In this document: in pieces, positions 4,189 to 59,247 of the stretch
Position numbering within the stretch: position 1 is the stretch's first letter
Layout: every line of letters starts with the position of its first letter
From: an uncultured Candidatus Poseidoniales archaeon
Lineage (GTDB): Archaea > Thermoplasmatota > Poseidoniia > Poseidoniales > Thalassarchaeaceae
Direction: 5' to 3'
Length of the DNA stretch: 64,000 nucleotides
Assembly: GCA_964645485.1 (NCBI GenBank)
Contig: CAZXZO010000007.1
Coordinates: 441-64,440 of the forward strand
The notes under the pieces: model-generated
Seen by the model: only the letters and a program-made list of their open reading frames with translations
Databases searched by the model: none
What the model was told of the DNA's origin: nothing
Position numbers and translations under genes: made by a program

Positions 4189-4204
4189 ACAAAAATATGA
4201 AACC

Positions 4205-7200
4205 ATGAAAATATGGGGAGTGGCCATGAGAAAGCAAAGAAGGTCTGCGGTCTTTACATCACTTTTGATGTTGTCATCCATCCTGACTGTTGGATTGGCA
4301 GCAGGATTAGATGGAGATAATGATGGAATTGATGACGCCGTTGATGATTGTCCATACGCCTGGGGCAATAGCAGTATAGATTTCACAGGTTGCCCAGATT
4401 CTGATGGGGATGGAAATCCCGATACAGTCGGTGCATGGGAAGGTGATTGGACAGAATCTAGCAGGTCACTATACGACAATTCTGGTTCATCTAGAGCCAT
4501 AGCGTGGGCATCCGACTCAGTTCACCTAGTCGGTAGCGGTGGAGGAAATGTAATCCTTTACAATGGCGCAGGTGCTAAAATATCTACACTGGTGTCGATT
4601 AGTGAAAACGTCAGAAGTTTAGATTTCACTGCAAACGACTCCTATCTGGCTGTTAGCGGATATTACGATAATTCTCAGAACCATGCATGGGTTCTGGTTT
4701 TAGAAATGGATTGGCCAACAAAAACCGCAACTGTAATCCAAAATCTAAGTTCCCAACATTCAGGTGACGTCTTTGCAGTCGAATGGTCAAATAATGGGGA
4801 CTATCTCTACACCGCTGGTGCTGATAACCTAATCAGAAAATTCGCCACGAATAATTGGACATTGGTTGATAGTTATAGCCGGTTAGACCAAATTTACAAC
4901 ATTGCAATTAGTCCAGATGACCGATTAATAGCAAGTGTGCATGGTTACGAAGTCTCCGTGTTTTGGACAAGTAATGGTACTGTATTTTTTAATCATGTAA
5001 ATCATTCTGGAATTACTCTCGCAGTAGCATTTAGTCCAGACGGTAAATGGGTGGTGACAGGTTCAGATGATACTTGGATTCATGTCTACAACACAACTAG
5101 TGGGAACCGACACACAGGTTGGGATGCTGGTTCTAGGGATATTAATCAAATTTCATTTGACCCAACTGGAAGCTTTTTTGTAGTTGCAAATGATGGTTAT
5201 AGTGGATATGTTTACCAAACAAGTGATTGGACCTACATCGATAATTTTGGGAGTTTTGGCACCTCTAACCAAAATCGCGGAACAAGGGCAGTGGAGTGGT
5301 CTCCTGATGGTTTGAAGATTGGTTTCGGCCAAAATAGAGGTAGGACAGCGGTTTACATTTTACCGGAGGGCCATCATCAACTGAAAGGCGATGTCACATC
5401 ACAATTGATGCTCAACCGTTGGAGATACAACTATCTGATGGAAGGTAAGCCATTATCACAAGAAAACCAAACAACCTCACAAATGACTCAAAATCTATGT
5501 AATGGGGAGGACATCATAGGTGCTAATTATTCGTTCAAAGAGAACCTTGCTAATCCCTTTGCAAATTATTCAACTTCCGGGCTGTTAGACTGCACATCCA
5601 CAAATAGAGAATTGTTAGAAGTTCCAATCGGCAGAATGCCTGCATCTTTCTTTGTTAAATCAGGTGGTCAGGCAGAAGCTTGTCTAAAGAGAATTGGAGG
5701 GCTGTCAATGGCCCAATTGAGGTATTTGGTTTCAGATGCTAGTGTTTCAACATTGGCTCAACCTGGATGGGCACCCGGTATGATCTGGGCGAGCATCGTT
5801 CCAAACGACGACTCTGACGGCGTGAAGGAATGGAGTGATTTCGACTCCTCCTGTCCTCAAGAAGGAATACACGTTTACCAAAGATGGGATAACCGTTCAG
5901 TTCCGATGATGATTGGGCGTCTCCTGACTTGTGCAGGTTGTCAATTTGAAGAGGATTTCTTTTCTAGTACGAGTTCACGCTACAGATTCACTGAACAAAC
6001 AAGGAGTGACATACTTTACGCAGTATCTCAAAATGATGAATCAATTGGATTTACCGAAATGAGGGCTGCAGAAAATTATTCTGGAATTTGGATAGTGCCT
6101 ATCGCTGATAATTGGACGCATAGTGCAAAAGACCACATCGCTGCCGGCGGAGTCACAATTTCACCCTCATTTGACAACAGTTCTAACGGAACTTATCCTG
6201 TACAATCCGACTACAACTTCATTCTGAACCGCGCTCAACAAGATGATCGGATGATGTTGATGAATTGGATGTTAAGTGATGCTGGTCAGAATGAGTGGGA
6301 TAGTATGGGTTTTGTCCGACTTGGGATTCTCGCAAGAGTAGATGCTTGGGCCAGATTGGGTGTTGATGCAACCGCTCTTCTCCCAGATACTGATGGTGAT
6401 GAAATATGGGATGGTGACGATGACTGTCCTGGTACTTGGACTGGATGGCAAGTTGATGCTGTGGGTTGTGCCCAACACCAAATTGATTCCGATGGTGACG
6501 GATACTACAATCATGAAGATGATTGTGTAAACGTTAGTGGTTCATCACTATGGCCAGAACTAGGTTGTATCGATTCAGACGGTGATGGCTGGACCAATTC
6601 TTCAGATAGTTTCCCATCCGACTTTAGTCAATGGGCTGACAATGATAGTGATGGTTATGGGGATAATTTATCGGGGTTGAATGCGGATGATTGCCCTCTT
6701 TTCGCTGGTAATTCTACCAATGATAGACTTGGTTGTGCAGACACTGACGGTGATGGTTGGTCAGATGAAGATGGCGATTGGAGCCTAACTGATGGCGCTG
6801 ACCACTTTCCTAATGATGCCACTCAATGGCGAGATAGTGATGGTGATGGATACGGTGACAATTACTCATTCACTATTGATGAATCTGGTTTGAGAATTCA
6901 AAATGGAGACGCGTTTGATGATGACATCACTCAATGGTCTGACCGCGATGGAGATGGCTTTGGCGACAATGGTATTGGCCAAGCGAGTGACGACTGTCCA
7001 GATGCTGCCGGAACCTCAATGGTTGACAGCGTAGGCTGCCCTGATGATGATGGCGATGGTTACTCAAATACTGCTGATATGTTTCCCAATGAGGTGACAC
7101 AATGGTTCGACACCGATGCCGATGGTTATGGTGATAATTGGGCAGGCGCTAATCCTGACCAATGTGTTGAGACACCATCATTTGAAGTGCCTTACGTTAA

Positions 7201-8110
7201 CGAAGATGGTTGTGGTCCATCAGAAAGAGATTCAGATTCAGATGGTATAATGGATGATATAGACCAATGCCCCTCAACCCCGATTGATCAAGCTGCTTTT
7301 GTAAATATGAATGGTTGCTCAGAAGCAGAAAGTGATGATGATGGAGATGGTGTTTACAACACTATAGACGGCCCAGATGGAATTTACAAGGATGATGCAA
7401 CACAATCAGCAGATAGTGATGGAGACGGCTTCGGAGACAACCCCAACGGGACGGACGGAGACGCTTGTCCTCAAATGCATGGGACTTCCGACAAAGACCG
7501 CCGCGGTTGCCTTGATAGTGATGGTGATGGATACAGTGACCCTGGTGGCGGCTGGGGCATATCTGACGGAGCCGATGCTTGGAAAAATGAGGCAACACAA
7601 TGGTCAGATTTTGATGGTGACGGATATTATGATAATTATGACAATCCTGCTTGGACCGCTTCTCGAGAAGAGGGATGGCCCGGAAAATATGTTGCTGGTG
7701 CTAGAATTGGGGATAAGTGTCCATTGAACGCCTCTGATTCGGCATATCCTGACCCGGGGTGTCCTACAAAACAAGGTACAATCTTAGATTATGGGAATTC
7801 AGATGCATCTGATGGTGGTCTTCCAATAATGCTAATCGTAATCATATTCTTAATTACTTCTGGAATAGTTGGTTTAGTAGTTGCAATTGTTATGAAACAG
7901 CAGAAGCCAAAGAAAAAGAAAAAATCAAGCCAACGTTCACAACAATCGGTGACAGTAGATTCCGCACTTAGTGGGGAGGCTCTAGAACCACCACATTGGG
8001 AAATCCAAGGTGTTGTGGGGGATGATGGGTTTGAGTGGCTTGAATGGCCTGAACAAAGTGATGTCTGGTGGTTCAGAGAAGAGAGTGGCTATTGGGCTCA
8101 ATGGGAATGA
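4205..8110 (+). CDS. Giant membrane-anchored surface protein: signal/anchor, WD40 beta-propeller, PstS-like periplasmic-binding-protein domain, thrombospondin type-3-like Ca-binding repeat array, TM, Lys-run and Trp/acidic tail
   Basis: Start moved from the ORF-track 4070 to ATG 4205 (MKIWGVAMRKQRRSAVFTSLLMLSSILTVGLAAG, signal-like; ATG 4226 also possible). WD40-like blades: VFAVEWSNNGDYLYTAGADNLIRKF, LAVAFSPDGKWVVTGSDDTWIHVYN, INQISFDPTGSFFVVANDG, AVEWSPDGLKIGFG. PBP-like: LSMAQLRYLVSD...IHVYQRWDNRSV...ESIGFTEM...GTYPVQSDYNFILNR...NWMLSDAGQ...GFVRL. D-x-D-x-DG repeats. TM LPIMLIVIIFLITSGIVGLVVAIVM followed by KQQKPKKKKK. Confidence 0.85.
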   Translation: MKIWGVAMRKQRRSAVFTSLLMLSSILTVGLAAGLDGDNDGIDDAVDDCPYAWGNSSIDFTGCPDSDGDGNPDTVGAWEGDWTESSRSLYDNSGSSRAIAWASDSVHLVGSGGGNVILYNGAGAKISTLVSISENVRSLDFTANDSYLAVSGYYDNSQNHAWVLVLEMDWPTKTATVIQNLSSQHSGDVFAVEWSNNGDYLYTAGADNLIRKFATNNWTLVDSYSRLDQIYNIAISPDDRLIASVHGYEVSVFWTSNGTVFFNHVNHSGITLAVAFSPDGKWVVTGSDDTWIHVYNTTSGNRHTGWDAGSRDINQISFDPTGSFFVVANDGYSGYVYQTSDWTYIDNFGSFGTSNQNRGTRAVEWSPDGLKIGFGQNRGRTAVYILPEGHHQLKGDVTSQLMLNRWRYNYLMEGKPLSQENQTTSQMTQNLCNGEDIIGANYSFKENLANPFANYSTSGLLDCTSTNRELLEVPIGRMPASFFVKSGGQAEACLKRIGGLSMAQLRYLVSDASVSTLAQPGWAPGMIWASIVPNDDSDGVKEWSDFDSSCPQEGIHVYQRWDNRSVPMMIGRLLTCAGCQFEEDFFSSTSSRYRFTEQTRSDILYAVSQNDESIGFTEMRAAENYSGIWIVPIADNWTHSAKDHIAAGGVTISPSFDNSSNGTYPVQSDYNFILNRAQQDDRMMLMNWMLSDAGQNEWDSMGFVRLGILARVDAWARLGVDATALLPDTDGDEIWDGDDDCPGTWTGWQVDAVGCAQHQIDSDGDGYYNHEDDCVNVSGSSLWPELGCIDSDGDGWTNSSDSFPSDFSQWADNDSDGYGDNLSGLNADDCPLFAGNSTNDRLGCADTDGDGWSDEDGDWSLTDGADHFPNDATQWRDSDGDGYGDNYSFTIDESGLRIQNGDAFDDDITQWSDRDGDGFGDNGIGQASDDCPDAAGTSMVDSVGCPDDDGDGYSNTADMFPNEVTQWFDTDADGYGDNWAGANPDQCVETPSFEVPYVNEDGCGPSERDSDSDGIMDDIDQCPSTPIDQAAFVNMNGCSEAESDDDGDGVYNTIDGPDGIYKDDATQSADSDGDGFGDNPNGTDGDACPQMHGTSDKDRRGCLDSDGDGYSDPGGGWGISDGADAWKNEATQWSDFDGDGYYDNYDNPAWTASREEGWPGKYVAGARIGDKCPLNASDSAYPDPGCPTKQGTILDYGNSDASDGGLPIMLIVIIFLITSGIVGLVVAIVMKQQKPKKKKKSSQRSQQSVTVDSALSGEALEPPHWEIQGVVGDDGFEWLEWPEQSDVWWFREESGYWAQWE
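6386..7643 (+). repeat. Coding array of 14 thrombospondin type-3-like calcium-binding repeats (DxDxDGxxDxxD, often DSDGDGYGDN, with DDCP...GC spacers)
   Basis: Units read in the translation: DTDGDE, DSDGDGY, DSDGDGW, DNDSDGYGD, DTDGDGW, DSDGDGYGD, DRDGDGFGD, DDDGDGY, DTDADGYGD, DSDSDGI, DDDGDGV, DSDGDGFGD, DSDGDGY, DFDGDGY. Two further units lie near the N-terminus (4310-4430). The gatggtgatgg motif recurs at DNA level. Confidence 0.8.
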
Positions 8111-25252: not shown

Positions 25253-25264
25253 ATTATTGATATA
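25253..25264 (+). promoter_or_regulatory. TATA/BRE-like promoter element ATTATTGATATA upstream of lhr
   Basis: AT-rich 12-mer 44 nt upstream of ATG 25308. The identical 12-mer recurs at 56293-56304 upstream of the actin-like gene. Confidence 0.45.
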
Positions 25265-41388: not shown

Positions 41389-41796
41389 ATGGCAAAGCGA
41401 ACTAAGAAAGCAGGACTCGAAGCAAGATTCGGAGCTAGATACGGTGTGAGTGTCAGGCGAAGAGCCTCATCCGCACTAAGAAAGGTAAAGAGAGAATACT
41501 CTTGTCCAGTATGTCAATATCAAAAAGTAAGACGTGAATCTGCTGGTATTTGGGCTTGCAGAAAGTGTGGCCACACATTTGCTGGTGGAGTCTGGCAACC
41601 TTTTACCAGAGCATCTGATGCAAATAATAGGATTATTCGCAGGTCTGTTGAAGGAGCAACCGCTACTGATATGGCATTGATAGCCCAAAATGCTGCTATT
41701 GAATATGAGCGTACTTTGAATGAAGAAGACCAAGATGCTCCACTAGAAGAAATTACCACCGAAGGAGATGGTGATGATGGTAGCGAAGAAGAGTGA
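41389..41796 (+). CDS. rpl37ae: Large-subunit ribosomal protein L37Ae (eL43) with acidic C-terminal extension
   Basis: RFGARYGVSVRRR, and zinc ribbon CPVC...CRKCGHTFAGG. The roughly 40 extra C-terminal residues end in EGDGDDGSEEE. Confidence 0.9.
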   Translation: MAKRTKKAGLEARFGARYGVSVRRRASSALRKVKREYSCPVCQYQKVRRESAGIWACRKCGHTFAGGVWQPFTRASDANNRIIRRSVEGATATDMALIAQNAAIEYERTLNEEDQDAPLEEITTEGDGDDGSEEE

Positions 41797-51446: not shown

Positions 51447-53135
51447 CTATGAAATCCTAATGAGTTGCCAGTCTGTTAATTGTCTGAGAATTGACAATGC
51501 AGGTGAATCGGGTAATTTGTCTAAACATGAATGGGCTAATTGATGGTATTCCATCGCTCTATCCTTTGCATAAGAGATAGAACCAGAAGCCTGTAATTCA
51601 CAAAGAACTTCATCAAGTGTATCTCGAGGAGTTTCCTCATTTCGAGATGCAAACACCTCGTTGAATGTTGGTAACTCACTTGGCTCTAAACTTAATGCAT
51701 GAATTGCAATCAGAGTTCTCTTTCCTTCTACAACATCGCTGCAGGCTGGCTTGCCTAATGTCTCACTATCGCCGGTAGCATCGATTAAATCATCCATTAA
51801 TTGGAAGCAAAGACCGAGGTTTTCGCCCCAATTAGCCAGATTCTCAATTACATCTGCCTTTGCACCAGAAAGTATAGCACCTGTTCGTGCGCAAGTTGTG
51901 AACATAGCAGCGGTTTTTCCCGAGATCATAGCCAAGTATTCTTCTTCACTCACATAATCTCTGTTTTCAAAATCCATGTCTAGTTGTTGGCCTTCTGAGA
52001 CCTTACGAACCATTTTCCCGATTATTGAAACTAAAGAACGGAAATCCTCAGATGAGATTTCATCTGCTTCACTCAAGATCTCAAAGGAGACTGCCAACAT
52101 TGCGTCACCAGCGTTGATTGCTGTAGGCATATCATATGCAATGTGGACCGCTTCTCTGCCTCTTCTCAATTCATCATTATCCATTATGTCATCATGTACT
52201 AGAGTGAAATTATGAATGATTTCTATTGCAGCACCTAGGTCATACAATGAATCAGAAGAGCCGCCACATGCATCTGCTACCAACCATGGTAATATTGCCC
52301 GGAGTCGCTTCCCTCCACCTTCAATTAGGTGCATCATGGCATTTTTCAGACGTTCATGGTTTGATTTGTCTAATGCTGTAATTATCCTACTTTCTACTTC
52401 CGAAGCATGGTCTTTTAATGCCTCGAGTAAAGTAGAATCAGCGCTAGAAACAACATCTCCAATGTGATGTACCACATTTTCTTGAAGAGAACTTACTTCA
52501 TCAAGGTGACCCCACCAGTTGGAGGCGAACCTTGTATAAATCTCATAGAACCAAGGGGCAATAATTTCGCCGTTTTCTGGCGAATTGGTGATTAAATCTT
52601 CTAATTGTGATTGGTTTACCCAGCGGACTTCAGATATTTCATTGGGATTAATGTGTAATTCTACATCAGCGCGAATTAACAGAATATGGTCTAATTCATG
52701 TTCGATCCATTTTTCGTCTGCTCTTGCTCTATAATGCATCCTGGTTATTAGATGAAAATTCTCAATCGGTAATTGTTCAGAAGTGATTCCAAGTTCTTGT
52801 TCCATCTTACGAATTGCAGCACGTTTGACTCCGAGGTCATCTTCCATTTCAGTTTCGCCTTCAATGTCAAGGGGGTGGCTGCAACAAGAGTTTGCCCACA
52901 CTGATGGAAATGTAATCTTAGTATCTGCTCGTTTTTGGATTAACATCTCATTTGAGGAGTTGAACATTAAGATACTGAAAGCGCGATGAAGAGTTCCTTC
53001 TCCGAGGTGACTATCTACTTTTGACATTGAGCCGATTTGACAATCATTTTCATCAACTAAGATTACCATTTCTTTCATCATTTCACTTTGTTCTTCATCA
53101 TATTCAGCGCCAAGGAATGGACTGTTCTCGCTCAT
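51447..53135 (-). CDS. Fusion protein: type-1 (Nudix) isopentenyl-diphosphate isomerase + trans-polyprenyl (geranylgeranyl) diphosphate synthase
   Basis: N-terminal half: HRAFSILMFN, FPSVWANSCCSHP, AAIRKMEQELGI (IDI-1). C-terminal half: first Asp-rich motif LVHDDIMDNDELRRG, second FQLMDDLID. One uninterrupted frame. ATG 53135 chosen (the ORF-track GTG is at 53147). Confidence 0.88.
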   Translation of the reverse strand: MSENSPFLGAEYDEEQSEMMKEMVILVDENDCQIGSMSKVDSHLGEGTLHRAFSILMFNSSNEMLIQKRADTKITFPSVWANSCCSHPLDIEGETEMEDDLGVKRAAIRKMEQELGITSEQLPIENFHLITRMHYRARADEKWIEHELDHILLIRADVELHINPNEISEVRWVNQSQLEDLITNSPENGEIIAPWFYEIYTRFASNWWGHLDEVSSLQENVVHHIGDVVSSADSTLLEALKDHASEVESRIITALDKSNHERLKNAMMHLIEGGGKRLRAILPWLVADACGGSSDSLYDLGAAIEIIHNFTLVHDDIMDNDELRRGREAVHIAYDMPTAINAGDAMLAVSFEILSEADEISSEDFRSLVSIIGKMVRKVSEGQQLDMDFENRDYVSEEEYLAMISGKTAAMFTTCARTGAILSGAKADVIENLANWGENLGLCFQLMDDLIDATGDSETLGKPACSDVVEGKRTLIAIHALSLEPSELPTFNEVFASRNEETPRDTLDEVLCELQASGSISYAKDRAMEYHQLAHSCLDKLPDSPALSILRQLTDWQLIRIS

Positions 53136-53194
53136 TGCCTCACCCACTATCTTATCTGAGGGGTTTTGCCTCTATAATGAGATGGTATAATCTC

Positions 53195-54010
53195 CTATGG
53201 AGATTCAGGAATTATCCTCGTTCCTAATGTTGTACCATCTGTTACGAGTTCTACAATTCGTTCTGGATGTTCACCGTCAATAATCCAAACATTAGGTACA
53301 TGGGCAGAAATTTTTCCCCCAACACTTAATTTCAGATAAATGCCTCCAGTAACATCAATTTCGGATTTATGTACACCTTCAAATGGTTGGTTGGGTGACC
53401 ACTCAGGAATTAGTTTTGCAGTAGAATCAGTGGGTGGTGAAGACATCAATCCTGGTGCACCTCCCATTGCAAAAAGCATATGGCTCGCTTCTAGTTCTAT
53501 GGCCAGTCTATAGCAAATGTCATCGCCGCTTAAAATACCAAATTCTCTATCATCAGAACATTCGACAACATCTCCATATGTAATGTGAACTAATTCACCA
53601 TTTAAGTTGAAACGATGTAAATCTCCCACAAATTCCTTACCTGTTCCTACAGCCCATTCATGTGGTGGGTGTGAGGATGTAGAAATTCCTAACTTTTGTA
53701 GTTCAATAGAAACTAATTGATTCAGATTTAACATATCCCTTCTCACTGATTGGATAGCCTCATCTTGGGAACTTAGACTATTAGTTGTAGGTAAATCTTC
53801 GTTAATTCTTCCTTTGTGTAGTTTCCAAGTTTTAGCTTTCAGGTGACCATAACTTCCAGCGCCATGAACAATGATTACGCGTAAATTCAATTGGGTTAGT
53901 TGCTCAACTATTTTTGCTAAGTTTCGGATTACATCAATTTTTGGGGTACACAAGTTCTCTTTTTCTGTGATTAACCCGCCGCCAAATTTGATGATGACGG
54001 GCCCTTCCAT
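53195..54010 (-). CDS. ipk: Isopentenyl phosphate kinase (amino-acid-kinase fold)
   Basis: VIIKFGGGLITEK, IIVHGAGSYGH, ILSGDDICYRLA, IDVTGGI. ATG 54010 chosen (the ORF-track TTG is at 54016). Confidence 0.85.
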   Translation of the reverse strand: MEGPVIIKFGGGLITEKENLCTPKIDVIRNLAKIVEQLTQLNLRVIIVHGAGSYGHLKAKTWKLHKGRINEDLPTTNSLSSQDEAIQSVRRDMLNLNQLVSIELQKLGISTSSHPPHEWAVGTGKEFVGDLHRFNLNGELVHITYGDVVECSDDREFGILSGDDICYRLAIELEASHMLFAMGGAPGLMSSPPTDSTAKLIPEWSPNQPFEGVHKSEIDVTGGIYLKLSVGGKISAHVPNVWIIDGEHPERIVELVTDGTTLGTRIIPESP

Positions 54011-54108
54011 AGTCAACCCGAAAGAGCACTCTATGAAGTCAATTGCTATTGGCCTCAGTATAAAATTGACCCACCGCGTTGATTAGGGTAGATATGGTGC
54101 GGTGATTC

Positions 54109-54441
54109 ATGGAAGATGGTGCCACTGTAAACCAACTGCAAAGATATCTGCAGGATCAGTTGGTTGAGGCAGAAGATATATCTAATCTCGAAGAACGGAA
54201 AAAGAGAATATTAATCTTAGAATCATCATTATTTGAGGTGATTAAGTTTCTCAAATCGGTTGAAGAGAGAGAACTCATAGAATCAGTGATTTTTGAAGAA
54301 TCTTCTTCGGTCAGACTAATTTCGTCTTCTGATAAGGGCGACATTGAGAATACTTCTAACTCTGAAGTATGCGTAAAGTGTGATGAACCAAAAAGCGCCG
54401 AGTTTGATTTTTGTCAAGTATGTGGATACCAGAAAAAGTAA
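54109..54441 (+). CDS. Small acidic coiled-coil protein with C-terminal zinc ribbon
   Basis: 110 aa; CVKCDEP...CQVCGY at the C-terminus. No family recognised. Confidence 0.55.
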   Translation: MEDGATVNQLQRYLQDQLVEAEDISNLEERKKRILILESSLFEVIKFLKSVEERELIESVIFEESSSVRLISSSDKGDIENTSNSEVCVKCDEPKSAEFDFCQVCGYQKK

Positions 54442-55125
54442 TTACTCTTCTTCTCCCCATTCATCAAGCATTAGTGCATATTCTGTATTATCATAAGGCA
54501 CGTGTGCACAGAATTGAGCATCAACTATTTCTGTAAGGTAAACCGTTGTCCCAGCATGGTAAACAGTGTAGCCGGATGCTTGCATCTGGATAATATCGAT
54601 TTCGATTATTGCTGGTCGCGAATGGTGAACTGCGCCCGCATTTGCTGCATTTGTGATGGTCTTTGAAAGATGTACCCATTTTCTCCCACCAGGATGAATT
54701 CCACCTTCAAGATGAACATCCAATTCGTCCCTTGAAACAGGGTAAAAGAGTAATTCAGGAATATTGTCTGAAGGTAAGTCAAGTTCAATTTCTACTGTGT
54801 GTGCATAAGTTGCTCTCACATTACCGCCTCGAATTTCGTAACGACCCTTGGGATCTGTATCTACAATCGCTTGGATATGACGGTCCCTTAGCCAATGTTT
54901 GCGCTTATCTTTAGCAGAAATCCCATTAGATAATTCCCTTATACTAACCCAACCATTGATATCCATCTCTAAATCAAATTTTTCTGGAAAATGACGAAGG
55001 ATTCCAGCCATTCTTCTGGCTATCTGGTCTCTTTCCCTTCCATTCATTACGAATTTGCCTTCGCTATTACAGGCTGGACAAAGTTCACCTTCAAAGGTAC
55101 CATGCAGTTCACACTCTCGTAGCAT
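54442..55125 (-). CDS. kptA: RNA 2'-phosphotransferase KptA/Tpt1 with N-terminal zinc knuckle
   Basis: RMAGILRHFPEKFDLEMDINGWVSIREL, GRKWVHLS, and the N-terminal CELHG...CPAC. ATG 55125. Confidence 0.85.
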   Translation of the reverse strand: MLRECELHGTFEGELCPACNSEGKFVMNGRERDQIARRMAGILRHFPEKFDLEMDINGWVSIRELSNGISAKDKRKHWLRDRHIQAIVDTDPKGRYEIRGGNVRATYAHTVEIELDLPSDNIPELLFYPVSRDELDVHLEGGIHPGGRKWVHLSKTITNAANAGAVHHSRPAIIEIDIIQMQASGYTVYHAGTTVYLTEIVDAQFCAHVPYDNTEYALMLDEWGEEE

Positions 55126-55233
55126 CAAGCGGGCCGACTCGCGCCCTATTGATAACCGCGCCGGTTTAGGTGTCTCTGCCTATGTAGGCGTGAATAGGAA
55201 CTCATATGACCCTTGGAGTTACTCAAGGGTTTC

Positions 55234-56262
55234 ATGGCATTCCGGAAGAAGCCTGTGAAGGGAACCAAAGGCTTAGGCGAAGCGAAGGAGAATTTGACCG
55301 CCTTAGATGACGGAGATTGTCCTCGTTGTGGTGGTGGAAGTAGTAGTTCGTCTATTCCTGGTTACCTTGCTTGTGACCGTTGTCAATATGAATGGGCTGA
55401 CCCAAATAGTTCATCATCAGGTGGTAGAAGAGCTCGTGAATCGGTTCGCTCAGAATCCAAATTGATTGAACAGTTCAAAACAGAAATAGAATCAGGAACA
55501 GGATTATCCAGAGTTCTTGGGATTGATGAAAATTTAACCCGAGAACAGGAACAAGGATTAACTCGCCTGCAGGATAAATGGATGGAAGGAATGCAAGGAC
55601 ACTTCAATGTCGCAGAAGAACAGCGCAAACCGTTGATGATCAATTTTGATGAAGATGATAACATTCTCGAGACAGAAGTTGGTAAATTGACTCTAAAGAC
55701 TAACGATTTTGATGGAGGGGAAGAAGTCAGAATTGAATATCCGGGCAAGGGTACTGAATTTTACTTGTTAAATGAAGATTCAAGCACAGGGTGGAGGCGT
55801 GGGAGAACAATAGCAGATACTGCCCGCAATATCGCTTCTGTGATTAATAAAACTAGCAAGTTTGTATATGCTGACAATGTGGATAATGTAGTAACTTTTG
55901 AGTTAAGAGATAACCGACTAAAGGCGTCTTCTTTAGTACTCTATATTGACGACCCGGGTGGCAAAGATATTGTCGCTGAAAAGGACGGTGTGGTACTCGA
56001 CCCGACCGCCGTAGGAATTGAATCGGACTATCAAACCGCAGTAGAACTAGTACTTTCAGATGGGGTGATAACTCCTAGTGAAGACCAACTGCTCTGGGCG
56101 ATGCGGCAACATCTAGGAATTTCGGAAGAAAGACATGTACAGATTGTCATGACCCTGTTTGGTGAAGGGGTTACCAAAGAGTGTACTGGTTGTGGAGAGG
56201 GGGCACCTCTCTATTCAGAACACGCCGCTTGGTATTGTGATGGCTGTGAAATGTGGCTATAA
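55234..56262 (+). CDS. Acidic protein with zinc ribbons at both termini, unknown function (upstream partner of the actin-like gene)
   Basis: N-terminal CPRCGG...CDRCQYEW; C-terminal CTGCGEG...CDGCEMW; the central ~250 aa have no recognised family. ATG 55234. Confidence 0.65.
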   Translation: MAFRKKPVKGTKGLGEAKENLTALDDGDCPRCGGGSSSSSIPGYLACDRCQYEWADPNSSSSGGRRARESVRSESKLIEQFKTEIESGTGLSRVLGIDENLTREQEQGLTRLQDKWMEGMQGHFNVAEEQRKPLMINFDEDDNILETEVGKLTLKTNDFDGGEEVRIEYPGKGTEFYLLNEDSSTGWRRGRTIADTARNIASVINKTSKFVYADNVDNVVTFELRDNRLKASSLVLYIDDPGGKDIVAEKDGVVLDPTAVGIESDYQTAVELVLSDGVITPSEDQLLWAMRQHLGISEERHVQIVMTLFGEGVTKECTGCGEGAPLYSEHAAWYCDGCEMWL

Positions 56263-56292
56263 ATCAAGAGGCTTTGTAAACAATTGTTAGGG

Positions 56293-56304
56293 ATTATTGA
56301 TATA
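56293..56304 (+). promoter_or_regulatory. TATA/BRE-like element ATTATTGATATA upstream of the actin-like gene
   Basis: Identical 12-mer to 25253-25264. Lies 36 nt upstream of ATG 56340, with GGTGA between. Confidence 0.45.
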
Positions 56305-56339
56305 CCGTCCCCTTCGGAGCGTGGACTACGGTGAATACA

Positions 56340-57362
56340 ATGGCGAACGAGACTCTTTACATCGGTGTAGACCTAGGTACGTTTAGGTCAGTCATGGTTT
56401 CAAATGATAAACACGAAGAACAAGTGTTAACAGTTATCGGCACTCCAAAGGATTCGATTGCCAAAAACTTCCTCCGTAGAGATGTTTTATTCGGGGAAGA
56501 AGCTCTGAAAAACAGACTCGCATTGAACCTATACCGACCTCTAGAACATGGAGTGATTAAGGACACACCTGAAGATAAGAAATTCATTGCTCACTTCATT
56601 AATCACATGATGAATTTAGCTGACCCTGAGGAGTATGATAGAGTAGTTGCTGTAATCGGTGCTCCTGCTGAGGCAAGTCACGTTGACAAAACCGCAATTT
56701 TTGATGCTGCTGCTGGAACTGTCAACGCTTGCATGATTATTTCCGAACCTTTCGCAGTTGCTTATGCTCTAGATATGCTTGACCATACAATGGTTGTAGA
56801 TATAGGTGCAGGAACAACTGATATTTGCCGGGTTTACGGCACCATACCAAGGCCGGAAGACCAATTGCACGTAAATCAAGCAGGTGATGCAATTGATGCT
56901 GCTCTGATAGAAGCCATTCAACGCAAATACGTTGGCGCTCAAATCACTAAGGATATGGCAAGACGTTGGAAAGAACAATTTTCATTCACAAATACTTCAC
57001 CGCCAAAAGACCCGGTTGTTGTTGACTTTTCAATTGATGGAAAAGCAATGTCACTTGACATCACAGATTGTATCTCATCTGCTTGTGAATCAATTATCAA
57101 TCCAATTGTTGATAATTTGAAGGCTCTAATTGCAGATTCAAATCCAGAATATCATGATGGCTTCCGACAAAACATCATCCTAGCAGGTGGGGGTTCTGGA
57201 ATCAGAGGCCTAGGAGCCTCAATTGAAGAGAGACTAGCAGATCTAGGTGGCATCACTGTACACATTGTCGAAGACCCTGTCAGATTAGGAGCGATGGGTG
57301 CACTAAGGCTAGCGCAAGAAGTACCAGAAGAATATTGGAAAAACCTAACCCTTTCAGAATAG
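56340..57362 (+). CDS. Actin-fold cytoskeletal ATPase, MamK-family-like
   Basis: LYIGVDLGTFRS (phosphate 1), IISEPFAVAYALD, VVDIGAGTTDICRV (phosphate 2), KEQFSF, NIILAGGGSGIRGL (adenosine), GALRLAQEVPEEYW. These are closer to remembered MamK strings than to MreB. GTG 56331 is an alternative start. Confidence 0.85.
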   Translation: MANETLYIGVDLGTFRSVMVSNDKHEEQVLTVIGTPKDSIAKNFLRRDVLFGEEALKNRLALNLYRPLEHGVIKDTPEDKKFIAHFINHMMNLADPEEYDRVVAVIGAPAEASHVDKTAIFDAAAGTVNACMIISEPFAVAYALDMLDHTMVVDIGAGTTDICRVYGTIPRPEDQLHVNQAGDAIDAALIEAIQRKYVGAQITKDMARRWKEQFSFTNTSPPKDPVVVDFSIDGKAMSLDITDCISSACESIINPIVDNLKALIADSNPEYHDGFRQNIILAGGGSGIRGLGASIEERLADLGGITVHIVEDPVRLGAMGALRLAQEVPEEYWKNLTLSE

Positions 57363-57369
57363 TTAGGTA

Positions 57370-57960
57370 TCATTCCTCTTCGCTTGAGAACTTAGCAACG
57401 ATTTCATCTGAAACTAGTTTTTCTTGGCAATTTGGGCAAAGATCAGACCCACTCAATTCTAAGGGTTTTACTGCTAGAATAGACAAACAATGTGGGCAAG
57501 AAGCCATCATTTCGTTAGTTTCTAGATTAGATGAAGCAAGAATATTGGTCGATTGACCGATATACCAGGCCATAAACATAGGATTTGAAAATGTTGTAAA
57601 TCTCTTTACCATTCCAACTATTATGAAAATCAACATTATTGCCATTATTGCTGACATTATGCTTCCTTGAAGTCCTGAAATCAGGTCTAAGACTGTTATC
57701 AATGAGCATATTAGAATTAAGAAAATCCAATGCATAATCGCCAATCTATAAGCCCAGATTTTTCTCCTTGAAAAGCCAAAATATATTGCCAATCCTGCTG
57801 ATAAAGTAAGTATTGAAGCGAAAGTACCAATTTGTAATAATGTTCCTTCTAAACTCAATGAGAAGGTCAGTAACAAAAAGAAAAACAAGAGAGTTAACCA
57901 AAGGAGAGTGCTAGACATACTACGATGAACACGCTCAATAGTAGCGAGGTCCCTTTCCAT
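57370..57960 (-). CDS. Four-TM membrane protein with C-terminal cytoplasmic zinc ribbon
   Basis: TM-rich core, then CPHC...CPNC and an acidic end. Internal ATG 57960 preferred, because ATG 58035 would sit 3 nt from the divergent coaBC start. Confidence 0.6.
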   Translation of the reverse strand: MERDLATIERVHRSMSSTLLWLTLLFFFLLLTFSLSLEGTLLQIGTFASILTLSAGLAIYFGFSRRKIWAYRLAIMHWIFLILICSLITVLDLISGLQGSIMSAIMAIMLIFIIVGMVKRFTTFSNPMFMAWYIGQSTNILASSNLETNEMMASCPHCLSILAVKPLELSGSDLCPNCQEKLVSDEIVAKFSSEEE

Positions 57961-58038
57961 AACCCTTCCAATTTGTCTAACTAATTCAGTTTGATGGAAC
58001 CGATAGCCGTAAAGGATACCACCAAATCGGACCATCTA

Positions 58039-59247
58039 ATGAGTGAAACTAGTGACATCGGTGTAGATGTCACTTCTGACACCCTACTTGACAAACATGT
58101 GCTAGTTGCCATTAGTGGCGGAATTGCAGTTGTAGATAGTGTGAGGTTGCTTAGGGAACTAAGGCGCCATGGTGCTCAAATCACTGTAGTAATGACTCAC
58201 TCAGCCCAGGAAATGATTTCCCCTTTAGCCATCGAATGGGCAAGCCAATCTCAGATAATAACTGACTGGGATTCAGACATGGCTCAACTTGACTTAGTTG
58301 ATGCAGTTCTAATATGTCCAGCAACTCGTCATACAATCGGTTGTCATATTCACGGAATTTTAGATACCCCGATGCAAATGGCACTAACTGCAGCCCGAGG
58401 TCGGAAAATACCAATGCTGTTTATTCCAAGTATGCATAACTCATTATCAGACGATGAGGTAACCCAAGACCTTTGTTTGGAATTGGAAAAGTTTGGACAT
58501 CACATATTTTGGGGTGAAGAAATAGAGGGGCGCAGAAAACAACCTGATGTAATACAGATAGTGGGCACTCTTTCACATATAATTAACAAAAATCGTGCCA
58601 ACAGGAAGAGAGTTGCACTGACTTTGGGTGCTACCCGAAGCGCAATTGATTCAGTAAGGTGGGTTCAAAACACATCTAGTGGGAAAACAGGATTCGAGAT
58701 TTCAGATTATCTCTATAGAATGGGCCATGAAGTAGTAATTTTCAAGGGAGTTGTAACCACAAATTCCCAGTTAAACCACCAAGATATTAGAGATTGTAAA
58801 GAGCCTGAATCAATGCTTAATCAACTGATTGATTTCAGCCAGAGTGATAATCCTCCAGATGCCTGGATCTTTTCTGCTGCTGTTCTAGACTACACAGTGA
58901 CTAACACCTGGAGTACGAAATTAAGTTCAGGTATGGATAATTTCTCAATAGAATTACAAAAATCGGAGAAGCATATAGACATAATTAGTCAATCATGCAA
59001 GGATGATTTGAAAATTGGATTCAAATTACAATCAGGATTTACTAAGGGTGAATTAATAGAAGCTGCCAAAAATTCGTTAGAACGTAACGGTTTAGATGCA
59101 GTGGTTGCTAACCATTTAGAGAATCGCAATGAGGGGCCAAATCGGGCATTTTGGGTAGATTCAAATGGCACAATAATCGACCTAAAGGACAACTATTCTA
59201 TGGCAAAAGTAATTGATAAGAAATTATCAGAACCTAAAGATGACTGA
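58039..59247 (+). CDS. coaBC: Bifunctional phosphopantothenoylcysteine decarboxylase / phosphopantothenate-cysteine ligase
   Basis: Flavoprotein half HVLVAISGGIAVVDSVRLLRELRRHGAQITVVMTHSA, and CoaB half NTSSGKTGFEI...AAVLDY. ATG 58039. Confidence 0.88.
   Translation: MSETSDIGVDVTSDTLLDKHVLVAISGGIAVVDSVRLLRELRRHGAQITVVMTHSAQEMISPLAIEWASQSQIITDWDSDMAQLDLVDAVLICPATRHTIGCHIHGILDTPMQMALTAARGRKIPMLFIPSMHNSLSDDEVTQDLCLELEKFGHHIFWGEEIEGRRKQPDVIQIVGTLSHIINKNRANRKRVALTLGATRSAIDSVRWVQNTSSGKTGFEISDYLYRMGHEVVIFKGVVTTNSQLNHQDIRDCKEPESMLNQLIDFSQSDNPPDAWIFSAAVLDYTVTNTWSTKLSSGMDNFSIELQKSEKHIDIISQSCKDDLKIGFKLQSGFTKGELIEAAKNSLERNGLDAVVANHLENRNEGPNRAFWVDSNGTIIDLKDNYSMAKVIDKKLSEPKDD

What the first reader, a model, noticed from the sequence alone, without database searches (positions are those of the whole stretch)
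55234..57960. MamK-family actin homologue in an archaeon, flanked by two zinc-ribbon proteins: candidate uncharacterised cytoskeletal module
The 340-aa ORF at 56340-57362 has all the actin-fold signatures. Block by block, it resembles my recollection of the magnetosome actin MamK more than MreB.
- MamK VVSEPFMVGYGLD vs IISEPFAVAYALD here.
- IVDIGAGTIDICAL vs VVDIGAGTTDICRV.
- KEQFSF is identical.
- QPEY...NIVFAGGGSRIRGL vs NPEY...NIILAGGGSGIRGL.
- GALRLAEELPPQYW vs GALRLAQEVPEEYW.
No magnetosome genes are nearby. The gene has its own TATA-like element. Upstream on the same strand, 77 nt away, is an acidic 342-aa protein with zinc ribbons at both ends. Downstream, 7 nt away and convergent, is a 4-TM protein ending in a cytoplasmic zinc ribbon. 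One filament-former, one soluble Zn-ribbon adaptor and one membrane Zn-ribbon anchor would form a plausible positioning or tethering system. I know of no description of such a system in planktonic Euryarchaeota.
Basis: partly seen in the sequence, partly recalled or inferred. Interest (0 to 1): 0.72.

Follow-up and report, generated by a model that had tools for sequence, protein, structure and literature searches.

The report
MamK-like actin pair in marine archaea
Marine Group II archaea, among the most abundant plankton in the ocean, all carry a strongly conserved actin-like filament gene that resembles the bacterial magnetosome actin MamK far more than MreB, always next to an archaeon-specific double zinc-ribbon gene that may be its partner; nobody has studied either.

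Summary
ORF 56340-57362 is an intact actin-fold ATPase. It scores 368 bits on NCBI's MamK model, against 100 for MreB and 225 for BeeR. Its best solved-structure matches, by sequence and by fold, are MamK.

It is not a magnetosome MamK:
- It falls below the curated cut-off of 400 bits.
- It forms its own clade (100% bootstrap), confined to Poseidoniales (Marine Group II).
- It sits among housekeeping genes, with no magnetosome genes in the window.

The upstream double zinc-ribbon protein (A, 55234-56262) has no Pfam family, and every named relative is Poseidoniales/MGII. It is as conserved as the neighbouring prolyl-tRNA synthetase. It lies directly upstream of the actin in all 25 informative genomes and in further metagenome contigs, although the genes on both outer sides change. 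It is the credible candidate partner.

The downstream 4-TM zinc-ribbon protein (C) is real. However, it evolves fast and is separated from the actin in two lineages, so it is probably not part of the system.

Poseidoniales also hold a second, paralogous MamK-like actin, next to a coiled-coil protein.

Verdict: a new, uncharacterised archaeal member of the MamK-like actin family with a candidate partner. The three-gene module is only partly supported.

The parts
55234..56262 (+). Gene A: a 342-aa soluble protein. It has an N-terminal C4 zinc ribbon (C29/C32/C47/C50), two long helices, a beta-rich domain (about 148-255), a helical TerB/ENT-like segment (263-309) and a C-terminal C4 zinc ribbon (C317/C320/C335/C338). 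It is the candidate partner of the actin.
   Evidence: ORF and start codon. It has 283 detectable homologues; all that carry a source name are Poseidoniales/MGII or marine Euryarchaeota, and none matches a Pfam family. It has 92 invariant columns, including all 8 cysteines. The AF2 model has pLDDT 68, and 78-91 for residues 150-342. Foldseek finds no PDB match with E<1e-3. Only weak L37Ae/IS1595 zinc-ribbon and sub-threshold TerB/ENT hits appear. It lies directly upstream of B in 25/25 loci and in L037, L048-L051 and L055-L062.
56297..56307 (+). TATA-box-like element TTGATATACCG in the A-B spacer, 33-43 nt upstream of the B start codon. It is the probable own promoter of the actin gene.
   Evidence: The core positions are invariant or nearly so across 20 aligned Poseidoniales spacers whose flanks diverge. 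It is the only exact copy in the window; near-copies lie upstream of other gene starts, e.g. at 25257 and 61688. Promoter activity is inferred, not shown.
56330..56334 (+). GGTGA Shine-Dalgarno-like site 6 nt upstream of the B ATG.
   Evidence: Read directly from the sequence. It is conserved in most aligned spacers.
56340..57362 (+). Gene B: a 340-aa MamK-like actin-fold ATPase (Poseidoniales actin paralogue 1).
   Evidence: NCBIfam MamK 367.9 bits, BeeR 225, MreB 100.6. PDB MamK 261 bits. Foldseek gives MamK E 1e-29 with TM 0.76-0.81, BeeR 5e-24, MreB about 1e-17. The motifs DLGT, SEPF, DIGAGTTD and GGGS are intact. It is 70-98% identical across the order. Its clade has 100% bootstrap support.
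57370..58035 (-). Gene C: a 221-aa membrane protein (about 4 TM) with a conserved KRF.TF.NP motif, a C-terminal CPHC...CPNC zinc ribbon and an EEE tail. It is a convergent neighbour and probably NOT part of the actin system; its stable neighbour is dfp.
   Evidence: ORF. Hydropathy and family alignment. It is adjacent to B in 22 of 24 loci, but in L020/L021 it sits with dfp on the other side of the inverted Tpt1-A-B block. In L055-L064 it is absent from the B neighbourhood. It is 27-84% identical across loci.

Best explanation
Gene B encodes a chromosomal, housekeeping actin homologue of the MamK-like branch.

Shown:
- It is an intact actin-fold ATPase.
- Its closest solved relative is MamK.
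- It forms a clade of its own, found only in Poseidoniales.
- It evolves more slowly than the adjacent prolyl-tRNA synthetase.
- It has a conserved TATA-like element of its own.

Inferred:
- Like MamK, BeeR and other family members, it polymerises with ATP into cytoplasmic filaments.
- It has neither an N-terminal amphipathic helix nor a hydrophobic insertion loop, so it probably cannot bind membrane or cargo by itself and needs an adaptor.
- The best candidate adaptor or regulator is gene A. It is a soluble protein restricted to the same order, with a C4 zinc ribbon at each end of a beta-rich plus helical core. It is never separated from B, although the genes on both outer sides are reshuffled.
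- The zinc ribbons would hold a cargo or a second protein while another surface binds the filament.

The cargo and the cellular process (shape, chromosome or organelle positioning, membrane growth) are unknown. Gene C is a separate membrane protein linked to dfp, not an anchor of this system. Nothing here concerns magnetosomes.
For: Family and fold:
- NCBIfam MamK 367.9 bits against MreB 100.6.
- PDB sequence search: MamK 261 bits, BeeR 161, MreB 63.
- Foldseek of the AF2 model: MamK TM 0.76-0.81 at E 1e-29, ahead of BeeR and MreB.
- All nucleotide-binding motifs are conserved.

No membrane-binding element:
- Only five residues precede the first strand.
- The loop aligned with T. maritima MreB MNLFKP (L93/F94) reads NLADPEEYD.

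Conservation:
- In the most distant loci B is 70-76% identical, A 56-60%, ProRS 50-63%, Tpt1 48-53%, Dfp 41-45% and C 27-29%.

A-B linkage:
- A is adjacent and on the same strand in 25/25 genomes, and in the metagenome contigs.
- The upstream neighbour varies: Tpt1, a thiolase, or a 265-281-aa gene.
- The downstream neighbour varies: C, DZR110, a 92-aa ORF then C, or an unrelated 240-aa membrane protein then SIR2.
- A has no named relative outside Poseidoniales/MGII and no viral copy.

Precedent from relatives, which each sit beside a different protein with little or no Pfam match:
- A 426-aa coiled-coil protein next to paralogue 2.
- An N-terminal coiled-coil fused to the actin in the sister clade.
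- A 1940-aa protein with an ArlD/E domain in ANME-2.
Against: No direct evidence links A to B.
- There is no A-actin fusion. The N-terminal domain of the fused relatives is unrelated to A (hhalign probability 0.1%).
- The distance-matrix partial correlation between A and B is the lowest of all gene pairs (-0.65), although with 12 taxa this is weak evidence.
- B has its own promoter-like element, so the two genes need not be co-transcribed.
- The whole IDI-to-ProRS block is largely collinear in the order, so much of the adjacency is shared ancestry.
- A's fold gives no functional clue.
- Polymerisation of B is inferred from family membership only.
- The B model has low confidence in subdomain IB (pLDDT below 50 for residues 31-75).
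Confidence: 0.55

Rival explanations
1. The actin works alone or with unlinked partners, and gene A is functionally unrelated. A could, for example, be a nucleic-acid- or protein-binding zinc-ribbon protein of some other pathway. On this view the adjacency is inherited gene order in a conserved housekeeping block.
For: The surrounding block (IDI-GGPPS, AA kinase, DZR110, Tpt1, A, B, C, Dfp, ProRS) is collinear in most loci. B has its own TATA-like element. There is no rate covariation and no fusion. Zinc ribbons are common here, in 7 of 52 genes.
Against: Every other junction around the pair has been broken at least once within the order, namely Tpt1|A, B|C and DZR110|Tpt1. The A|B junction has never been found broken in more than 35 contigs. 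A is under unusually strong constraint for an order-specific orphan.
Confidence: 0.3
2. One reading: B filament, A soluble adaptor and C membrane anchor act together as a tethering system.
For: C is convergent and within 7-35 nt of B in most of the 22 (of 24) loci where it is adjacent. Its zinc ribbon is its best conserved part, and its topology would put that ribbon in the cytoplasm. The A-C distance vectors correlate (partial r 0.82), but this is weak.
Against: In L020/L021 C remains next to dfp, 3.5-4 kb away on the other side of the inverted Tpt1-A-B block. In the P0079 lineage an unrelated membrane protein and SIR2 follow B. C is the fastest-evolving gene of the block, down to 27% identity. 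Its invariant neighbour is dfp.
Confidence: 0.12
3. It is simply the archaeal MreB, as public annotation says ('rod shape-determining protein'). It would work at the membrane to control cell shape.
For: Pfam MreB_Mbl scores 99.7 bits, above its gathering score of 27. JGI and NCBI name the homologues MreB. A shape function cannot be excluded by sequence.
Against: The NCBIfam MreB models are far below cut-off: 100.6 against 293, and 87 against 365.75. Pfam PF06723 has no separate MamK family; the nearest relatives, including the MamK-like domains, all hit it. In the tree MreB is the distant outgroup (distance 1.77, against 1.14 to MamK). There is no amphipathic helix or hydrophobic loop. No gene product scanned in the window matches MreC, MreD or RodZ.
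Confidence: 0.08
4. It is a ParMRC-like DNA segregation system in which A is the DNA-binding adaptor.
For: The layout, an actin plus a small adjacent adaptor gene, resembles type II partition loci. Zinc ribbons and the basic N-terminus of A could bind DNA. The related archaeal Salactin has been implicated in chromosome partitioning (PMC10746226).
Against: There are no iterated centromere-like repeats in or around the pair. The ParM model scores 17 bits against a cut-off of 417. The locus is chromosomal housekeeping, with no plasmid or viral relatives of A. A is acidic overall (pI 4.66).
Confidence: 0.1

Closest known systems
MamK (magnetosome actin of Magnetospirillum; PDB 5LJV, 5LJW, 5JYG)
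   Same: It is the best match by HMM, by sequence (39-43% identity over the full length) and by predicted fold (TM about 0.8). The nucleotide-binding motifs and the C-terminal GALRLA..P..YW helix are the same. Both lack a membrane-targeting sequence, so both would depend on adaptors.
   Different: The window protein scores 368 bits where AMB-1 MamK scores 542 and the family cut-off is 400. It forms a separate clade. The host is an archaeon. There is no magnetosome gene cluster, and neither neighbour is related to MamJ, MamY or McaA/B. The filament architecture is untested.
BeeR (Verrucomicrobiota three-stranded tubular actin; PDB 8R2N; PMC11929497)
   Same: It is another MamK-related actin of unknown function in non-magnetotactic organisms. 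It is the second-best structural match (E 5e-24).
   Different: The window protein scores 225 bits against a cut-off of 530. BeeR forms its own clade with 98% support. The window protein lacks BeeR's 30-50-aa disordered N-terminal extension, and it is closer to MamK than BeeR is (39% against 29% identity).
Poseidoniales actin paralogue 2 (P0249 type; uncharacterised)
   Same: It occurs in the same archaeal order, and its clade is sister to the window protein's clade (78% bootstrap). It is 44% identical, is also MamK-like (330 bits) and also has an adjacent gene with no Pfam match above threshold.
   Different: Its neighbour is a 426-aa acidic coiled-coil protein downstream, not a zinc-ribbon protein upstream. 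Its locus differs (Peptidase_S8 ... PcrB, ABC transporter). I could not show that one genome holds both paralogues.
MreB
   Same: It shares the actin fold and matches Pfam PF06723. Public annotation uses this name.
   Different: Identity is only 27.5%. The window protein is far below the NCBIfam MreB cut-offs. It has no membrane-binding element, no MreC/MreD/RodZ match among the window's gene products, and the host has no peptidoglycan synthesis to organise (the last point rests on general knowledge of archaea).
Salactin and Volactin (haloarchaeal actins; PMC10746226)
   Same: They are archaeal actin homologues. The Salactin paper reports MamK as Salactin's closest family.
   Different: The matches are weak: NCBIfam salactin 60.6 bits against 400, and Pfam Volactin 30.6 against 35. 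They belong to different lineages (Methanotecta against Poseidoniales).
Actin-plus-adaptor systems (MamK-MamJ, ParM-ParR, AlfA-AlfB)
   Same: They share the proposed working principle: a filament former plus a small adjacent lineage-specific adaptor that couples filaments to cargo.
   Different: A has no sequence or fold similarity to any known adaptor. There are no centromere repeats. The resemblance is functional analogy only, and it is untested.

Membership tests
MamK family (NCBIfam NF040964) | Score at or above the curated cut-off of 400 bits | tested here: not met
   The window protein scores 367.9 bits. Calibration: AMB-1 MamK 542, Nitrospira P0262 425, fusion-clade P0246 414.5, other Poseidoniales 358-372, ANME-2 371, paralogue 2 330.
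MamK family (NCBIfam NF040964) | MamK is the best-scoring actin-like model, by a wide margin | tested here: met
   MamK 367.9, BeeR 225.1, MreB 100.6, salactin 60.6, ParM 17.1. PDB: MamK 261 bits against MreB 63.
MamK family (NCBIfam NF040964) | Actin-fold nucleotide-binding motifs intact (phosphate 1, connect 1 with the catalytic Glu, phosphate 2, adenosine) | tested here: met
   DLGT, SEPF, DIGAGTTD and GGGS all align with MamK.
MamK family (NCBIfam NF040964) | Phylogenetic placement within the clade of magnetosome MamK proteins | tested here: not met
   In the NJ tree the Poseidoniales clade has 100% support and is sister to paralogue 2 (78%). AMB-1 MamK groups with P0305 and P0275 elsewhere. 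Deep nodes are unresolved, so only 'not nested in the AMB-1 clade' is shown.
MamK family (NCBIfam NF040964) | Located in a magnetosome gene cluster (mamAB-type neighbours) | tested here: not met
   I scanned 49 window gene products with Pfam. All hits are housekeeping families, with no CDF transporter, MamE-like protease, LemA or magnetochrome match. A few small ORFs were not scanned.
MamK family (NCBIfam NF040964) | Two-stranded, parallel, non-staggered filament; ATP-dependent polymerisation | not testable with these tools
   This needs purified protein and EM. Only the monomer fold similarity was tested (TM 0.76-0.81).
MreB | NCBIfam MreB models at or above cut-off | tested here: not met
   PRK13927 scores 100.6 against 293, and TIGR00904 scores 87 against 365.75. 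Pfam PF06723 is passed (99.7 against 27), but Pfam has no separate MamK family and the MamK-like relatives also hit it.
MreB | Direct membrane binding element (N-terminal amphipathic helix or hydrophobic insertion loop) | tested here: not met
   The first beta-strand begins at residue 6. The loop aligned to T. maritima MreB L93/F94 reads LADPEEYD.
MreB | Associated mreC/mreD/rodZ genes | tested here: not met
   No such Pfam match appears among the 49 gene products scanned in the window.
BeeR | NCBIfam NF053558 at or above 530 bits, and a 30-50-aa disordered N-terminal extension | tested here: not met
   The score is 225.1 bits. There is no N-terminal extension. BeeR forms a separate clade with 98% support.
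Salactin / Volactin | Family model at or above cut-off | tested here: not met
   NCBIfam salactin 60.6 against 400. Pfam Volactin 30.6 against 35. Pfam Salactin 57.2 passes its cut-off of 27.1 but is far weaker than MreB_Mbl or MamK.
ParMRC-type partition locus | ParM-family actin, an adjacent DNA-binding adaptor and iterated centromere repeats | tested here: not met
   ParM scores 17.1 bits against 417. There are no repeat arrays in 54000-58200. DNA binding by A was not tested.

The most novel reading that the evidence does not exclude
A and B together form a previously undescribed archaeal actin-adaptor system. The conserved MamK-like filament would be coupled to its cargo by a double zinc-ribbon protein of unknown fold. 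It would be one of two paralogous actin-partner pairs in Marine Group II archaea; the other pair uses a coiled-coil partner. Both actin genes lie near isoprenoid-lipid genes (IDI-GGPPS, IPK-like kinase and thiolase for one; GGGP synthase PcrB for the other). The system could therefore organise membrane growth or cell shape in some of the ocean's most abundant, still uncultured archaea.
Probability: 0.3. Interest if true: 0.75.

Novelty: new member of a known kind. Interest (0 to 1): 0.5.

Why it matters
Marine Group II archaea are among the most abundant planktonic microbes, have no cultured representative that I know of, and their cell biology is essentially unknown. Their genomes label this gene 'MreB', which is misleading. 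It is a distinct, very strongly conserved clade of the MamK-like actins, and a second paralogue exists.

This gives a concrete and cheap experimental entry point:
- Express B and test ATP-dependent polymerisation.
- Test whether A binds B.

It also adds to the emerging picture, after BeeR, that MamK-like actins are widespread outside magnetotactic bacteria and recruit lineage-specific partners. If A is confirmed as an adaptor, it would be a new adaptor type built from two zinc ribbons.

Tried and rejected
1. MamK A278D lead. The window protein has Asp at the position where A278D makes MamK non-polymerising (PDB 5LJW title; alignment). That column is hypervariable across the family, with D and E the commonest residues, so it allows no inference.

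2. Rosetta-stone test. The nearest non-Poseidoniales relatives are 523-1232-aa fusions. Their conserved N-terminal coiled-coil domain is unrelated to A (hhalign probability 0.1%).

3. Rate covariation (mirror tree). The A-B partial r is -0.65, the lowest of all pairs. With 12 taxa and differing saturation I treat this as uninformative.

4. Hairpin in the A-B spacer. It looked plausible by eye, but RNAalifold predicts no consensus pairs.

5. Centromere-like repeats. None were found.

6. Viral or mobile origin. A has no viral relative, and B has only three distant MamK-like hits in IMG/VR.

7. Fold-based annotation of A. There is no PDB fold match with E<1e-3. Profile searches give only weak L37Ae/IS1595 zinc-ribbon and sub-threshold TerB/ENT hits.

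8. Both actin paralogues in one genome. I found no shared contig or locus-tag prefix in four look-ups, so this is unresolved.

9. Literature. No paper in the held library combines MamK with Poseidoniales or Marine Group II, or discusses an actin in this order. The MamK structure paper (PMC5127371) is not held.

10. Rfam and tRNA scans of the window found nothing.


Full report
**What is there**

The three ORFs are exactly as described.
- A: 55234-56262 (+), 342 aa.
- B: 56340-57362 (+), 340 aa.
- C: 57370-58035 (-), 221 aa.

The A-B spacer is 77 nt and the B-C gap is 7 nt, convergent. Public assemblies that carry the identical protein call the same genes.

The flanking genes are housekeeping: an IDI-GGPP synthase fusion, an amino-acid-kinase-family protein, a 110-aa zinc-ribbon protein (DZR110), Tpt1/KptA, then A-B-C, then Dfp/CoaBC and prolyl-tRNA synthetase. 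The rest of the window is ordinary archaeal core genome. It includes SRP54, exosome subunits, proteasome alpha, SBDS, TiaS, L37Ae, S12/S7/EF-2, RFC, GlyRS, Trk and an Lhr helicase. None of the 49 gene products scanned matches a magnetosome gene family. No Rfam family or tRNA is present.

**The actin**

B scores as follows against curated models and solved structures.

| Source | MamK | BeeR | MreB |
|---|---|---|---|
| NCBIfam | 367.9 bits (E 4e-110) | 225 | 100.6 (best model) |
| PDB sequence search | 261 bits (5LJW/5LJV/5JYG) | 161 (8R2N) | 63 (1JCE) |
| Foldseek of the AF2 model | E 1e-29, TM 0.76-0.81 | E 5e-24 | E about 1e-17 |

Pfam gives MreB_Mbl 99.7 bits, but Pfam has no separate MamK family. 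The AF2 model has pLDDT 71 and pTM 0.71.

All nucleotide-binding motifs are intact. Identity is about 39% to AMB-1 MamK, 35% to BeeR and 27.5% to T. maritima MreB, while MamK and BeeR share 29%. So the MamK-over-MreB observation is solid.

**Is it a MamK?**

Only loosely. NCBI's curated cut-off for the MamK family is 400 bits. Scores against that model are:

| Protein | Bits |
|---|---|
| AMB-1 MamK | 542 |
| Nitrospira protein that NCBI names MamK-family (P0262) | 425 |
| Fusion-clade protein (P0246) | 414.5 |
| Window protein B | 368 |
| Other Poseidoniales orthologues | 358-372 |
| ANME-2 relative (P0261) | 371 |
| Poseidoniales paralogue 2 (P0249) | 330 |

I built a neighbour-joining tree of 86 full-length actin domains, drawn from an exhaustive search of 1.84 billion representatives. 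It used 333 columns, 100 bootstraps and MreB as outgroup.
- The Poseidoniales sequences form a clade with 100% support.
- That clade is sister to P0249 (78%).
- Both join, weakly (54%), a well-supported clade (99%) of long fusion proteins.
- AMB-1 MamK and BeeR (98%) lie in other clades.
- Deep nodes are unresolved.

The protein is therefore a distinct clade within a broad MamK-like superfamily. It is not MreB and not a magnetosome MamK. It lacks an N-terminal amphipathic helix, and its loop equivalent to the MreB membrane-insertion loop is acidic. Like MamK, it should need adaptors to reach membrane or cargo.

**Distribution**

Thousands of 90%-identity clusters match B. The top 120 are 76-97% identical and come from MAGs labelled Poseidoniales, Poseidoniaceae, Thalassarchaeaceae or 'Euryarchaeota', usually annotated 'rod shape-determining protein MreB'. 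I found no paper that links MamK or any actin with this order.

**Neighbour A**

A has 283 detectable homologues. All that carry a source name are Poseidoniales/MGII or marine Euryarchaeota, and none matches a Pfam family. An alignment of 24 homologues shows 92 invariant columns. These include all eight zinc-ribbon cysteines and the motifs RLQDKW, FDGGEE.R.EYPG.GTEF, GWRRGR, DDPGG and DGIITPSEDQLLWAMRQ.

The AF2 model (pLDDT 68, and 78-91 for residues 150-342) shows, in order:
1. an N-terminal zinc ribbon;
2. two long helices;
3. a beta-rich domain;
4. a helical bundle;
5. a C-terminal zinc ribbon.

Foldseek finds nothing with E<1e-3. Profile searches give only weak L37Ae/IS1595-type ribbon similarity and sub-threshold TerB/ENT hits. 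A's acidity is not special, since the window's median pI is 5.4.

**Synteny**

In 27 species-representative genomes, A lies directly upstream of B on the same strand in all 25 that include upstream DNA. The junctions around the pair have all been broken somewhere in the order.
- A thiolase gene is inserted between Tpt1 and A in nine loci.
- A further 265-281-aa gene precedes A in other lineages.
- In L020/L021 the Tpt1-A-B block is inverted. DZR110 then follows B, while C stays with dfp 3.5-4 kb away.
- In the P0079 lineage B is followed by an unrelated 240-aa membrane protein with a Q/P-rich tail, and then SIR2.
- In L048-L051 a 92-aa coiled-coil ORF separates B from C.

The A|B junction is intact in every contig seen. 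In the most distant loci, B (70-76%) and A (56-60%) are at least as conserved as ProRS (50-63%), whereas C drops to 27-29%.

C is nevertheless a real family. It has four TM segments, a KRF.TF.NP motif, a conserved CPHC...CPNC ribbon and an EEE tail.

**Limits of the A-B link**

- The spacer contains a conserved TATA-like TTGATATACCG and a GGTGA, so B probably has its own promoter.
- No A-actin fusion exists. The N-terminal domain of the fused relatives is unrelated to A.
- Distance-matrix covariation does not single out A-B.
- No repeat arrays suggest a centromere.
- Zinc-ribbon motifs occur in 13% of window genes.

The link therefore rests on persistent adjacency, shared phyletic restriction and strong constraint. 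It remains an inference.

**Context from relatives**

P0249, the sister lineage, is also from Poseidoniales. This order therefore has two MamK-like paralogues that are 44% identical. Paralogue 2 sits in a very conserved context: Peptidase_S8, the actin, a 426-aa acidic coiled-coil protein, PcrB and an ABC transporter. I could not show both paralogues on one contig or in one MAG.

Other MamK-like actins sit in other settings.
- Some carry an N-terminal coiled-coil fused through a long disordered linker, in a bacterial-looking context.
- One lies inside a cheA-cheC-cheD cluster.
- In ANME-2, one precedes a 1940-aa protein with an ArlD/E domain.
- One is fused to a complete FtsZ.

The recurring theme is a conserved filament former with a lineage-specific partner. 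That theme makes A a reasonable partner candidate.

**Verdict**

The best reading is a housekeeping, ATP-dependent, MamK-like filament system specific to Marine Group II archaea. The double zinc-ribbon protein A is its probable adaptor or regulator (confidence about 0.55 for the pair, about 0.85 for B as a filament-forming MamK-like actin), and C is a bystander. It is a new, uncharacterised archaeal member of a known protein kind. Interest is moderate, because the host is globally abundant and its cell biology is unknown.

Noticed in passing
L028:6001-8381; L038-L047 (actin at 3001-4005, partner at 4098-5378): Poseidoniales carry a second MamK-like actin paralogue (334-336 aa, 44% identical to the window protein, NCBIfam MamK 330 bits). 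Its context is highly conserved: Peptidase_S8, the actin, a 426-aa acidic coiled-coil protein (faint crescentin-rod hit), PcrB and an ABC transporter. I could not show it in the same genome as the window-type actin.
   Followed up: partly
window 51447-54016; L018:3617-4843; L028:8361-9137: Both actin paralogues lie next to isoprenoid or ether-lipid genes. The window type is near the IDI-GGPP synthase fusion and an IPK-like amino-acid kinase, and in many loci a thiolase sits directly upstream of A. Paralogue 2's partner overlaps PcrB (GGGP synthase). This could be coincidence, or a hint of a membrane-growth role.
   Followed up: no
P0242-P0260 (e.g. L033:382-3027): The closest non-Poseidoniales relatives (44-49% identity) are 523-1232-aa proteins. 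Each has a conserved N-terminal coiled-coil domain (K[FY].EWA.YFG), a long low-complexity linker and a C-terminal MamK-like domain. The gene context looks bacterial (Peptidase_M23, glycosyltransferases). They pass the NCBIfam MamK cut-off (414.5 bits for P0246).
   Followed up: partly
P0284 (768 aa, from the representative search): This single polypeptide has a complete FtsZ (Tubulin GTPase plus FtsZ_C, residues 4-307) fused to a MamK-like actin domain (435-753). It is a tubulin-actin fusion that groups near the AMB-1 MamK clade in the tree.
   Followed up: partly
L036:1-4507 and L035:6001-12925: One MamK-like actin (P0257) is embedded in a cheA-cheC-cheD-actin-291aa-cheC cluster. The ANME-2 MamK-like actin (P0261) is followed by a 1940-aa protein whose only Pfam hit is an N-terminal archaeal flagella ArlD/E domain. 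This may link some MamK-like actins to chemotaxis or archaellum positioning.
   Followed up: no
L052-L054 (IMG/VR contigs of 50, 114 and 274 kb): Three contigs classed as viral encode MamK-like actins that are 36-44% identical to the window protein. None encodes a relative of A.
   Followed up: no
window 76-4188 and 4070-8110: Two overlapping giant ORFs lie in tandem (1370 and 1346 aa). One has a GH115_C domain and the other WD40 beta-propeller repeats.
   Followed up: no
window 54442-55128 (-), 57370-58035 (-), 41389-41796 (+): Three of 52 window proteins end in an EEE tail: Tpt1 (...WGEEE), C (...SSEEE) and L37Ae (...GSEEE). The tail is conserved in orthologues of Tpt1 and C. Tpt1 also begins with a zinc-ribbon-like CxxxxxxxxxxxCxxC. 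Significance unknown.
   Followed up: no
L002-L005 record titles: Contigs whose actin genes are 94-97% identical to the window's are labelled Thalassarchaeaceae in three cases and Poseidoniaceae in one. Family-level labels on these MAGs are therefore not reliable. The window most likely comes from a Thalassarchaeaceae (MGIIb) genome.
   Followed up: no
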